Virus record (IMG/VR): IMGVR_UViG_2675903661_000018
From: a virus
Lineage: Duplodnaviria > Heunggongvirae > Uroviricota > Caudoviricetes
DNA: 63,382 nucleotides
Reading direction: 5' to 3' (one strand)
In this document: positions 12,001 to 15,000 of the stretch, piece by piece
How the letters are laid out: each line of letters starts with the position of its first letter
How positions within the stretch are numbered: the first letter of the stretch is position 1
Made by a program: the position numbers

Positions 12001-15000
12001 TTCGCGCTTCACCAAACTGTTTCTGATAACCAAGATTTGTTGTGCCAGCGATATTTTCGTACTGCTGCTCACTGTTCAGGTCATCGACCTTTTCCATGAA
12101 GTTATCTTCTGCCGGACGGAGGATTTTTTGATAATCCTGCCACCCTTTCCAGGCCACTTCTTCCTGCGCTATTTGCGCTGCTGTTGGTTTTACTTTGGTA
12201 TCACCACCGCCTTTACTTCCACCCATAATGGCCCCCTGGATAACAAAAAACCCTGCCGGAGCAGGGTCAGAATGTGAATTACAATGTTGGTTTAAACACA
12301 ATGATGAAAACTGTAGCAGTCAGACCGCTATCCTGAACACCATGAAGCCATCCTCATCATCCGGCATTCGCTCAAAGCCCAGACGTTTTCCCAGCCGGAT
12401 AAATCCCCGCCTTGCCGTATGAAATTCAGCCCAGCGTCCGCCAGCCAGACGGGTTAATGTCTTCACCTCCGGCAGATAACGCTCAACGCTGTTACTCCCC
12501 GTACACACGCCCAGCAACACCAGAACATAAGGGATACCATCAGCACTGAGCACAGAACGCAGCACCAGAAAGCCATCAGGTGCCTCAAAACAAAACGCCT
12601 GCTTTTTAAGGCAGGCGTCTTTAACTTCATTCATAAATTCAGGGTTGCGGGAATTTCTCACCACACGCTGCATATACCGGAGAATTTTTTCACTCACACT
12701 CTCACCACAAAAAAGAACAATGTGACTGTGCTGTGTCTTCAGCGACAGAAGGATGACGGAGAACGCTTCCGATAACCAACACGGCTGGCGTTCTCCGCAA
12801 AAAATAAATTACCAGCCGACAGACATACCCGCAGCAACACCTGAACCGTTCTGGGTATCCCATGAAGCATTCAAACGTACAGCAGAATTTTCAGTGGTGC
12901 GGAAGTGCATACCTGCTGCGATAGCCTGCTCATCACGGTAGTTACTTGCAGCCATACCAAAGGAGTACGTTTTACCCTCAACAACAGGAATGGCAGTCAT
13001 CGCCATTGCTCCTGCAATACCTGCATCTGCACGTTTACGGTTTTTCTCCACCTCATCACGTAACTGACGGAATTGCTGATTAGTACTACGCTCCAGGGTA
13101 CTGACCCGGTTATCTGTGTAGGTATTAGCAGACTTCAGTGTCTGTGCATCACCCTGAATACGGGCATTCTCTTCTGCAATACGATAGCGCTCTAACTGAC
13201 CATAGGTTGCGGCATCCGCAGCCTGAACACCATCACGAAGCCCACCAATTACACGATTCCCCACATTAACTTCATCGGGGCGAGTGGTCTGAGAGTTAGC
13301 CCCTACAGCAACACTGTTCGTATGGTTTGCAGTGGCGTTGTAACCGACAGCAGTGGCGTTTTCTCCGCCTGCTGTTGCCCCGCCACCAACCTGAGTTTTA
13401 CCGGTGCCCAGAGAAGACAGACGGGCGTGAATATCTGTTACATCTGCAGCAGAAAGACCAGTGTCAATAGTGGCTCCATATTGCACAGCCTTCATTTTAA
13501 TTTCATAAATATATTCACTAATTTCAGGAATATGTCTTGAATATGTTTTTCCATCAGCGCCTACTGTCGTGACCACGCCTTCGCCATCTGCACTAAAGAG
13601 AATTTGATTGGTTTTTGTGTTTACAAAATAAGCTGTCTCATTCGCGTAATCATAATATGAGACGATGTCTCCCCTTGGAGCAACTAACTCGGTATCTGTC
13701 AGGCCAGCCTTACCATAATCAATTAAGGTATATTTCAAATATTTACCGGAAACAGCGTCTATATTTAATGAGGTTGGTGTATTCCCGTTAAGAGGAGTAA
13801 CCTTACCATCAACAAGCTTAATTAAAGGAGCCCCTCCCTCTTTTGGATATACACCGATACCTTTCAAAAATTCCGCAGAAGTCATTGAATTACTATTCAG
13901 AGTTTCAGGTGTAACGGAATAACCACTGGCATACGCTCCAGCAGAAAATAATGACAGGCTTAATGCTGGCATTAAAGCCAACAATAGCTTGCTTGCCTTT
14001 TTCATGATGTGTACCCTTATGTTAAATCATGTTATAAATATGTTGACATTCGGAACGCAAATGTCTTCAGGGATACTACTCACAATAACAAGGCAAATAA
14101 AATATCAAAATCAATGGGTTAAGAAAAATTAATAATTAAAATCACAAGAATGCAATACGCATCAAAAACTTACCCTAAATAACACCAGTATTACTCAGAA
14201 AAAACAAAACATTTTCTGTGGTTATTATTTACCATTGATAAATATTACCTCTCTCTGTCAGCCTGCATTGTATAAAACATACACTACAAACGGGTGCCAT
14301 ATCGGCTGAACCTCAGCAACCAGTTGACGGGGACTTTCGTCCCCGTCGCGGTTTTCCTACTGCTTACACTGTAAGAACGCCGCAAACTCCGCTCCCCACA
14401 AATTCAGCCGGAACTCACACAGCGAACCGTGCAACATCCAGATAGTGAAGATAACCGTCATACAAATTGTGACGGTGATAAGCGATTTTTGCGACATAGC
14501 GCTTGACTCCTTTTACAGAGAGGCGCTAACCTTCTACTTGCTTAAGGTATGATGATTAGGGCCTCGGGTTAACGTTAAGTTGACTCGGGGCCTTTCCACA
14601 TCAGGCCTTCAGGTTCTCCCTCCAGCCATCAGCCGAAAGGCACCCACGCATAATTTACGGTTTTTGCCCTGTACGGGCAATAAAAAACCCGCCATCACAG
14701 CGGGTAGTAAACGGTTACCGGATACAGGTCAGAATTTCAGGCCAATGCCAGCAGTAACGCCACTCGTGCGCCAGTCGCCAGAGCCGGAACCTTCGTAAGC
14801 CACATCCAGTGTAACACTCTCATTCAGGTTAAACTGTGCACCTGCAGCCCACGCAAGGGAGGTTTTTTTCGTGCTGTTGCTTTCAGAAAATCCGCCACTA
14901 CTGTTAATATTGTCCTTAATTTTCAGGTCAGCGCTAACTTTAGCAACGCCCATCCCTGCCATCGCATATAAACTCATGTACTGATTAACCCGCCATGAAG

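What the first reader, a model, noticed from the sequence alone, without database searches (positions are those of the whole stretch)
14300..14728. Hok-family type I toxin locus hidden in the Lom-adhesin intergenic region
A 46-aa ORF (14357-14497, minus), below the track cutoff, has the Hok/Gef signature: one TM helix followed by SLCEFR...AEFAAF. A 9-bp-stem hairpin sits just after the stop, and ~200 bp of structured leader lies upstream (14498-14700) where mok and the sok antisense would be. The periplasmic tail is divergent from the Hok sequences I recall, so this may be a distinct subfamily. It sits between two virulence-type cargo genes.
Basis: partly seen in the sequence, partly recalled or inferred. 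Interest (0 to 1): 0.55.

Follow-up and report, generated by a model that had tools for sequence, protein, structure and literature searches.

The report
Known Hok toxin gene beside lom
The small gene is a real Hok-type membrane toxin with its own antisense RNA antidote, carried by Shiga-toxin phages next to lom, but it is already annotated in public genomes and this exact peptide has already been catalogued and reported toxic, so it is ordinary.

Summary
The 46-aa ORF at 14357-14497 (-) passes Pfam HOK_GEF (33.2 bits, cutoff 22) and keeps all conserved Hok residues. It lies in a complete hok-type mRNA module: a conserved sigma-70 promoter, a 5' GGGUGCC (tac) that pairs with a 3' GGCACCC (fbi), an alternative tac-ucb fold, a covarying hairpin after the stop codon, and a conserved antisense (Sok) promoter and hairpin on the + strand.

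It is not new. RefSeq annotates it as "Hok/Gef family protein" (WP_000078907.1) and PHROG 251 covers it. The identical peptide is entry 72_1589 in a 2025/26 Hok survey, which cloned it and reports it among the toxic homologs.

It is not the published hokW-sokW of prophage Sp5. That is a different 51-aa Hok, of which this window keeps only a broken remnant at about 913-1057.

One departure from the plasmid R1 paradigm: this copy has no mok frame overlapping hok, and only 14 of 53 distinct relatives have one. The loop that Sok would recognise is the most variable leader segment.

Verdict: correct identification, already known, low interest.

The parts
14675..14680 (-). hok promoter -35 box (TTGCCC)
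   Evidence: Read from the sequence. A TTG at this fixed position is kept across unrelated upstream contexts.
14652..14657 (-). hok promoter -10 box (TAAATT), 17-nt spacer, 6 nt upstream of GGGTGCC
   Evidence: A TAnnnT hexamer sits at the same position in 22 of 23 distinct upstream sequences. The strict consensus scan did not flag it.
14292..14645 (-). hok mRNA module, about 354 nt from tac to fbi; this is the unit conserved between different genomic contexts
   Evidence: Homology among 55 distinct loci starts at the -10/GGGTGCC and ends at GGCACCC; the flanks are unrelated.
14639..14645 (-). tac element (GGGUGCC) at the predicted 5' end. The adjacent UCGGCUGA (14629-14636) forms the second part of the 5'-3' helix.
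   Evidence: The minimum-energy fold of the full-length RNA pairs it with fbi. It is 98% paired across 29 sequences.
14587..14597 (-). ucb-like box (GGAAAGGCCCC), the alternative partner of tac once the 3' end is trimmed
   Evidence: Seen in the RNAalifold consensus and in folds of 3'-truncated RNA.
14534..14601 (-). Short upstream ORFs: ATG 14601 (8 codons) and GTG 14599 (21 codons, stop at 14534). Neither reaches hok, so there is no mok equivalent.
   Evidence: Only 14 of 53 distinct relatives have an ATG/GTG frame running into hok.
14520..14565 (-). Predicted Sok-target stem-loop of the processed mRNA (GAGGC...GCCUC), with a variable apical loop at about 14532-14559
   Evidence: RNAalifold pairs at columns 108-119 with 146-156. 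The loop has the highest column entropy of the leader, 0.69 bits against 0.27-0.47 for the neighbouring leader and coding segments.
14507..14512 (-). hok Shine-Dalgarno sequence (AAGGAG), 9 nt before the ATG
   Evidence: Read from the sequence. Mostly paired in predicted folds.
14357..14497 (-). hok coding sequence, 46 aa plus stop
   Evidence: Identical to RefSeq WP_000078907.1 'Hok/Gef family protein' and to peptide 72_1589 of the Hok survey.
14318..14353 (-). Hairpin after the stop codon (inner 9-10 bp stem at 14325-14348)
   Evidence: -23.6 kcal/mol, z=-5.2. Two pairs are fully compensatory: AU to GC in 13 sequences, AU to CG/GC in 15.
14292..14309 (-). fbi element (GGCACCC, 14292-14298) plus UCAGCCGA (14302-14309), which pair with the 5' end
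   Evidence: fbi is invariant in 29 of 29 sequences.
14503..14532 (+). Sok promoter: -35 TTGACT (14503-14508), 18-nt spacer, -10 TAACCT (14527-14532)
   Evidence: TTGnnn, 17-18 nt, TAACCT was found in all 26 aligned sequences tested before the script stopped. The layout matches that of plasmid R1 as recalled from memory.
14540..14597 (+). Predicted Sok antisense RNA, about 58 nt: an 18-nt single-stranded 5' tail complementary to the variable loop, then a 16-bp hairpin at 14558-14594
   Evidence: -26.5 kcal/mol, z=-3.9, against -12.5 (z=-0.8) for the mRNA-sense strand. Across 13 distinct variants the means are -22.2 against -13.1 kcal/mol. The ends are predicted, not mapped.

Best explanation
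This is a hok/sok-type type I toxin-antitoxin module carried as a small accessory gene by 933W/Sp5-like Shiga-toxin phages, directly downstream of lom.

Shown here:
- The 46-aa ORF is a Hok/Gef peptide under purifying selection.
- The conserved unit runs exactly from a sigma-70 promoter and a 5' GGGUGCC to a 3' GGCACCC.
- The + strand carries a conserved promoter followed by a hairpin that is stable only on that strand.

Taken from the literature: this exact peptide was cloned and tested in the Hok survey, whose text names only three other peptides as non-toxic.

Inferred by analogy with plasmid R1 and from folding:
1. The full-length mRNA is locked shut by 5'-3' (tac-fbi) pairing. The Sok-target region is paired to the 3' UTR and the hok start codon is paired to codons about 36-41.
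2. Slow 3' trimming removes fbi. The 5' end then refolds onto ucb, and the target hairpin and the hok start become accessible.
3. Sok, about 58 nt long, pairs through its 5' tail with the variable loop and silences or destroys the mRNA.
4. When Sok is lost, Hok is made and depolarises the inner membrane.

Unlike R1, this copy has no mok frame overlapping hok. Translation must therefore start at hok's own AAGGAG site or depend on a short upstream ORF.

The biological role is not established. Candidates are help with lysis on induction (as shown for hokW), retention of the prophage, or exclusion of other phages.
For: Protein:
- Pfam HOK_GEF 33.2 bits against a cutoff of 22; PHROG 251 E=2.8e-24.
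- All conserved Hok residues are present: C12, T14, L26, C27, E28, E37.
- dN/dS is 0.22, and the 10 variable sites among identical-peptide variants are all synonymous.
- RefSeq names it 'Hok/Gef family protein'.
- The identical peptide, 72_1589, was cloned as plasmid LRP157. The survey text says 42 of 45 tested homologs were toxic and names three others as the non-toxic ones.

RNA:
- Rfam sok RF01794 matches 14484-14645 (-) with E=2.4e-6.
- Module boundaries coincide with tac and fbi across 55 distinct loci of 62-97% identity.
- The minimum-energy fold pairs tac with fbi, and truncated RNA switches to tac-ucb.
- On 29 sequences 92.2% of cells are paired. 21 pairs change on both sides against 10.8 in shuffles (0 of 500 shuffles reach this), and slid controls give 37-43%.
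- The Sok promoter is conserved.
- The Sok hairpin shows strand asymmetry in 13 variants.
- The hok promoter is conserved at a fixed distance in unrelated contexts.
Against: - There is no mok frame overlapping hok in this copy or in the Sp5/933W copy. In R1, mok translation is needed for Hok synthesis (established knowledge, restated).
- The Rfam sok match is below the gathering score (36.4 against 59).
- No terminator follows fbi, either here or in Sp5, so the 3' end of the mRNA is unknown.
- tac and fbi are invariant, so that helix has no covariation support of its own.
- No transcript, processing or Sok data for this particular locus were found in the searchable literature.
- The toxicity of 72_1589 is read from the survey's text and tables. 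Its figure was not seen.
Confidence: 0.85

Rival explanations
1. A translationally silent, regulatory-decayed hok copy. The toxin ORF and the RNA fold persist, but the mok frame is gone and the downstream sequence has been replaced, so Hok is never made from the native transcript and the locus does nothing for the phage.
For: - No mok in the window or in Sp5/933W.
- Indels in the variable loop shift the upstream frames, and only 14 of 53 variants keep an ATG/GTG frame into hok.
- No terminator follows fbi.
- Other sequence begins a few bases after fbi in every context.
- The hokW-type gene in the same phage has visibly decayed.
Against: - The peptide is under purifying selection.
- Both promoters, tac, fbi, the Sok hairpin and the long-range helices are conserved, with compensatory changes, across E. 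coli, Salmonella, E. albertii and Citrobacter. A dead locus would not be expected to keep all of these.
- hok has its own strong AAGGAG site.
Confidence: 0.12
2. The ORF is incidental. The region serves only as RNA structure or terminators between lom and the adhesin gene, or as a stand-alone small RNA gene.
For: - The lom terminator lies at 14687-14705.
- The hairpin after the stop looks like a terminator when read on the + strand.
- The region is highly structured.
Against: - The Pfam and PHROG matches.
- A synonymous-only substitution pattern.
- The identical peptide is reported toxic.
- The module occurs intact in other contexts that have neither lom nor the adhesin gene.
Confidence: 0.03

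Closest known systems
Hok cluster 72 of Escalera-Maurer et al. (bioRxiv 10.1101/2025.08.07.668861), peptide 72_1589; RefSeq WP_000078907.1; PHROG 251
   Same: The amino-acid sequence is identical. The survey classes cluster 72 as high-abundance. The peptide was cloned under an arabinose promoter and falls among the homologs reported toxic.
   Different: Nothing differs at the protein level. That study deliberately did not analyse mok, Sok or the mRNA elements. Those elements are described here for this locus by computation only.
hok/mok/sok of plasmid R1 (parB)
   Same: - The peptide family.
- A promoter followed by a 5' tac that can pair with either fbi or ucb.
- A hairpin after the stop codon.
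- A Sok promoter whose -35 box overlaps the hok ribosome-binding region.
- A Sok RNA with a single-stranded 5' tail plus a hairpin.

   Different: - Only 28% peptide identity, and a shorter C-terminal tail ending in CKQ.
- No mok start after the Sok-terminator hairpin and no frame overlapping hok.
- No terminator after fbi.
- Found in prophages; rare on plasmids, 34 of 72,556 records.
hokW-sokW of prophage Sp5 (Takada et al. 2021, PMC8621323)
   Same: It is a hok/sok-type module in the same kind of Stx phage. It is the only phage-borne hok with a demonstrated role, namely earlier lysis and about twofold more released phage after induction.
   Different: It is a different gene. HokW is 51 aa (MKQQKAM...DYESEK), sits in cluster 35 with HokD, and is 33% identical. 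It lies elsewhere in the phage. This window keeps only a frameshifted, internally deleted remnant at about 913-1057. The label 'MokW-like host killing' on the lom-adjacent ORF in some records is only a family name.
HokA of E. coli K-12
   Same: It is the closest characterised Hok: 43% identity, with a shared ...TWM/IWM...SLCE...AAFL.CK pattern. It is also the best NCBIfam match.
   Different: The window peptide scores 38.4 bits against the HokA equivalog cutoff of 89, so it is not a HokA ortholog. HokA is a chromosomal locus, not phage-borne (recalled from memory).

Membership tests
Hok/Gef toxin family (Pfam PF01848) | Scores above the curated Pfam gathering threshold | tested here: met
   33.2 bits against 22, E=4e-8, covering residues 8-44.
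Hok/Gef toxin family (Pfam PF01848) | A peptide of about 50 aa with one N-terminal hydrophobic helix and the conserved residues C16, T18, L30, C31, E32, E41 (numbering of the logo in the Hok survey) | tested here: met
   46 aa. The hydrophobic stretch LITVTICMTVIFTIWML is read from the sequence. C12, T14, L26, C27, E28 and E37 align with the conserved columns.
Hok/Gef toxin family (Pfam PF01848) | Toxic to E. coli when expressed | not testable with these tools
   Literature only. The identical peptide 72_1589 (plasmid LRP157) was tested. The text states that 42 of 45 homologs were toxic and names three others as non-toxic.
[quoted passage not shown] | A cis-encoded antisense RNA gene (Sok) with its own promoter, complementary to the hok leader | tested here: met
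   TTGnnn, 17-18 nt, TAACCT is conserved in 26 of 26 sequences tested. The hairpin is stable on the + strand only, in 13 variants. Expression was not tested.
[quoted passage not shown] | 5' tac pairing with 3' fbi, with an alternative tac-ucb fold after 3' trimming | tested here: met
   Seen in minimum-energy and ensemble folds, in the RNAalifold consensus and at 98% pairing across 29 sequences. The tac-fbi helix is invariant, so its support comes from conservation rather than covariation.
[quoted passage not shown] | A mok reading frame overlapping hok and translationally coupled to it | tested here: not met
   The upstream ORFs end at 14578 and 14534, both before the hok ATG at 14497. Only 14 of 53 distinct relatives have an ATG/GTG frame reaching hok.
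[quoted passage not shown] | Match to the Rfam sok model RF01794 at its gathering score | tested here: inconclusive
   A full-length match to model positions 1-157 with E=2.4e-6, but 36.4 bits against a gathering score of 59.
[quoted passage not shown] | A transcription terminator after fbi and 3' exonucleolytic processing | tested here: inconclusive
   No convincing terminator lies downstream in the window or in Sp5 (z=-0.2 and -0.4). Processing cannot be tested here.
hokW-sokW (Sp5, Takada 2021) | Encodes the 51-aa HokW peptide (MKQQKAM...VDYESEK) | tested here: not met
   33% identity. The primers and length given in the paper define a different gene. A remnant of that gene lies at about 913-1057.
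HokA (NCBIfam NF007290 equivalog) | Scores above the equivalog cutoff | tested here: not met
   38.4 bits against 89.

The most novel reading that the evidence does not exclude
This prophage Hok subfamily may work without mok. Hok translation would be gated only by the tac/fbi/ucb refolding, by hok's own ribosome-binding site or a short upstream ORF, and by Sok-triggered decay. The fast-evolving, indel-rich loop that Sok recognises would give each co-resident prophage copy its own private antidote, letting a strain such as O157 carry many copies without cross-talk. If so, the module could time lysis or prophage retention phage by phage.
Probability: 0.25. Interest if true: 0.35.

Novelty: already known. 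Interest (0 to 1): 0.15.

Why it matters
It matters little beyond correct annotation.
- Several deposited Stx-phage records leave this ORF unannotated, call it hypothetical, or label it 'MokW-like'. That label invites confusion with the experimentally studied hokW.
- Knowing that 933W/Sp5-type phages carry a second, distinct hok module next to lom is relevant to work on hokW deletion phenotypes, because a second Hok remains in those strains.
- The missing mok frame and the variable Sok-recognition loop are modest leads on how hok regulation diversifies in prophages.

Tried and rejected
1. I first equated the locus with the published hokW-sokW, because some records label it 'MokW-like'. This was rejected after reading the paper: HokW is a different 51-aa peptide.
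2. I looked for an R1-style mok start just after the Sok-terminator hairpin and for any frame overlapping hok. None exists in this copy.
3. The strict promoter scan found nothing in 14150-14800. Both promoters were instead identified by position and by conservation across homologs.
4. I looked for a terminator after fbi and found none.
5. The genome-contig scan gave only 7 loci, three of them in implausible hosts. IMG/VR supplied the useful set.
6. I tried to test the 'private Sok per copy' idea on co-resident prophages. Only two same-genome pairs could be recognised from contig names (L029/L053 and L089/L141). Both differ in the loop, but this is anecdotal.
7. Literature searches for expression or function of the lom-adjacent hok in 933W/Sp5 found nothing specific.

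Full report
**Observation**

The minus strand of 14357-14497 encodes MSQKSLITVTICMTVIFTIWMLHGSLCEFRLNLWGAEFAAFLQCKQ.
- It passes Pfam HOK_GEF at 33.2 bits against a gathering score of 22.
- It matches PHROG 251 over its full length, E=2.8e-24.
- Its best NCBIfam match is the HokA equivalog, far below cutoff at 38.4 bits against 89.
- A motif scan of all six frames found no other intact Hok-like ORF in the window.

The flanking genes are an Ail/Lom outer-membrane protein (14729-15463) and a YadA-like adhesin (12809-14005).

**Origin and existing annotation**

- The region is 100% identical to Escherichia phage phiSTEC1589-Stx1c and to several STEC chromosomes. It is about 98% identical to 933W, VT2-Sakai/Sp5 and many other Stx phages.
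- RefSeq annotates exactly this ORF as WP_000078907.1, 'Hok/Gef family protein'.
- One RefSeq phage record calls it 'MokW-like host killing'.
- VT2-Sakai leaves it unannotated, and 933W and PQ600364 call it hypothetical.
- A protein search found 56 clusters of the same 46-aa subfamily in E. coli, Shigella and Salmonella. Those clusters that carry a source name are all called Hok/Gef.

**It is not hokW**

The published hokW-sokW of Sp5 (PMC8621323) encodes a 51-aa peptide. The paper's primers and length, together with the survey table, give MKQQKAM...VDYESEK. That peptide is 33% identical to the window peptide.

The window holds only a frameshifted, internally deleted remnant of that gene type, at about 913-1057 (+).

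**It is already catalogued and tested**

Escalera-Maurer et al. (bioRxiv 10.1101/2025.08.07.668861, v2) list the identical peptide as 72_1589, in a high-abundance 60%-identity cluster. They cloned it as pAZ3-72_1589, plasmid LRP157. Their text states that 42 of 45 tested homologs were toxic and that only 19_179, 60_1482 and 69_1540 were not.

I infer from this that 72_1589 was toxic. I did not see the figure. The same authors state that they did not analyse mok, Sok or the mRNA elements.

**Anatomy, from 86 related loci**

The loci came from GTDB genomes and IMG/VR. They gave 55 distinct 440-nt cores, 62-97% identical to the window.

Homology starts at the -10 box and GGGTGCC and ends at GGCACCC. 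The sequences on either side are unrelated between contexts.

hok promoter:
- -35 TTGCCC at 14675-14680, a 17-nt spacer, then -10 TAAATT at 14652-14657, followed 6 nt later by GGGTGCC.
- A TAnnnT hexamer and a TTG keep these positions in 22 of 23 distinct upstream sequences.

mRNA folding:
- The full-length RNA (14645-14290) folds with GGGUGCC paired to GGCACCC (14292-14298) and UCGGCUGA paired to UCAGCCGA.
- Removing about 30-40 nt from the 3' end switches the 5' end onto GGAAAGGCCCC (14587-14597). The predicted accessibility of the hok AUG rises from 0.24 to 0.54-0.59.
- RNAalifold independently returns the tac-ucb stem and a target stem-loop, GAGGC...GCCUC.

Pair counts on 29 sequences:
- 92.2% of cells are paired, against 37-43% when partners are slid.
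- 21 pairs change on both sides, against 10.8 in shuffles (0 of 500 shuffles reach this).
- Compensatory changes concentrate in two places: the hairpin after the stop codon, and a long-range helix between the Sok-target region and the 3' UTR.
- The tac-fbi helix is invariant. Conservation supports it, but covariation cannot.

**Sok**

The + strand carries TTGACT (14503-14508), an 18-nt spacer and TAACCT (14527-14532). This pattern was found in 26 of 26 aligned sequences tested.

The predicted RNA, about 14540-14597, has an 18-nt free 5' tail and a 16-bp hairpin, at -26.5 kcal/mol and z=-3.9. The same hairpin read on the mRNA strand gives only -12.5 kcal/mol and z=-0.8. This asymmetry holds for 13 distinct variants, with means of -22.2 against -13.1 kcal/mol.

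Rfam's sok model matches 14484-14645 end to end with E=2.4e-6, but below its gathering score.

**mok**

No frame overlaps hok in this copy. ATG 14601 gives 8 codons. GTG 14599 gives 21 codons and stops at 14534, 37 nt before the hok ATG.

Between the window and Sp5, a small indel patch at about 14553-14560 shifts these frames. Only 14 of 53 distinct relatives have an ATG/GTG frame that runs into hok.

The patch lies in the apical loop of the predicted target hairpin. That loop is the most variable leader segment, at 0.69 bits per column against 0.27-0.47 for the neighbouring leader and coding segments; only the 3' UTR stretch it pairs with is comparable, at 0.67.

**Selection and context**

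- dN/dS is 0.22. Nine nucleotide variants encode the identical peptide, and all 10 of their variable sites are synonymous.
- In the close group, with peptides identical or nearly identical to the window's, the order is lom, hok, then the orf125 homolog. This holds even where Lom is only 64-68% identical.
- The YadA-like cassette is inserted a few bases after fbi in the window and in five other loci.
- The 76%-identity group sits at the end of a different prophage, after tail-fibre genes and next to host genes such as serS.
- The module is rare on plasmids, in 34 of 72,556 records.
- No terminator follows fbi.

**Mechanism and verdict**

The best-supported reading is a hok/sok-type type I module that follows the R1 folding pathway but lacks mok.

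The ORF, its family, its selection, both promoters, the strand-specific hairpin and the conserved folds are shown here. Transcript ends, 3' processing, Sok action and the biological role are inferred. The role demonstrated for hokW, help with lysis on induction, is a plausible model but was not tested for this locus.

It is already annotated, catalogued and reported toxic, so it is ordinary.

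Noticed in passing
window 913-1057 (+), ORF 924-1040: A remnant of a HokD/HokW-type hok gene. The start reads ATGAAAGCAGCAAAAGGCGATG, with one extra A compared with hokW. The frame is shifted, the C-terminal half is deleted, and there is no hok leader upstream. Intact versions in other Stx phages are annotated MokW, RelF or Hok.
   Followed up: partly
window ~12700-14288: A YadA-like adhesin cassette is inserted between the hok module and the orf125 homolog, relative to 933W/Sp5. The junction lies only about 4 nt after fbi (GGCACCCGTTT, then divergence). 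The same cassette occurs in L028, L030, L036, L049 and L053.
   Followed up: partly
window 38760-38973 and 39035-39246 (-); 48826-48901 and 48926-49013 (+); 57995-58084 (+): Rfam matches above gathering score: two tandem STnc100 copies, isrK followed by C4 antisense RNA, and sRNA-Xcc1.
   Followed up: no
PQ600364.1 (L004), equivalent to window 12800-15500: The product names in the deposited annotation of the identical phage conflict with the Pfam assignments for the same ORFs. Lom is called 'virulence determinant Bor', the YadA-like protein 'terminase large subunit', and the gene upstream of lom 'endopeptidase Rz'.
   Followed up: no
L005, L006, L008: Near-E. coli/Salmonella hok loci sit on contigs assigned to Xanthomonas pisi, a Planococcaceae MAG and Vagococcus sp. 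These are most likely assembly contamination. L006 also has a masked run of N in the leader.
   Followed up: no
L010 (Citrobacter braakii), around locus position 1356: In this variant a 34-codon upstream ORF ends in a stop that overlaps the hok start (UGAUG). This is a classic termination-reinitiation arrangement, unlike the window copy.
   Followed up: no
L054, L059, L062, L074, L079, L082, L083; L092-L096: In the 76%-identity group, hok is the last gene before the prophage-host junction. Several IMG/VR prophage contigs end 3 nt after its stop codon, and host genes such as serS follow.
   Followed up: partly
window 1106-9532 (-): A single 2808-aa ORF lies immediately next to the hokW remnant. 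It was not examined.
   Followed up: no
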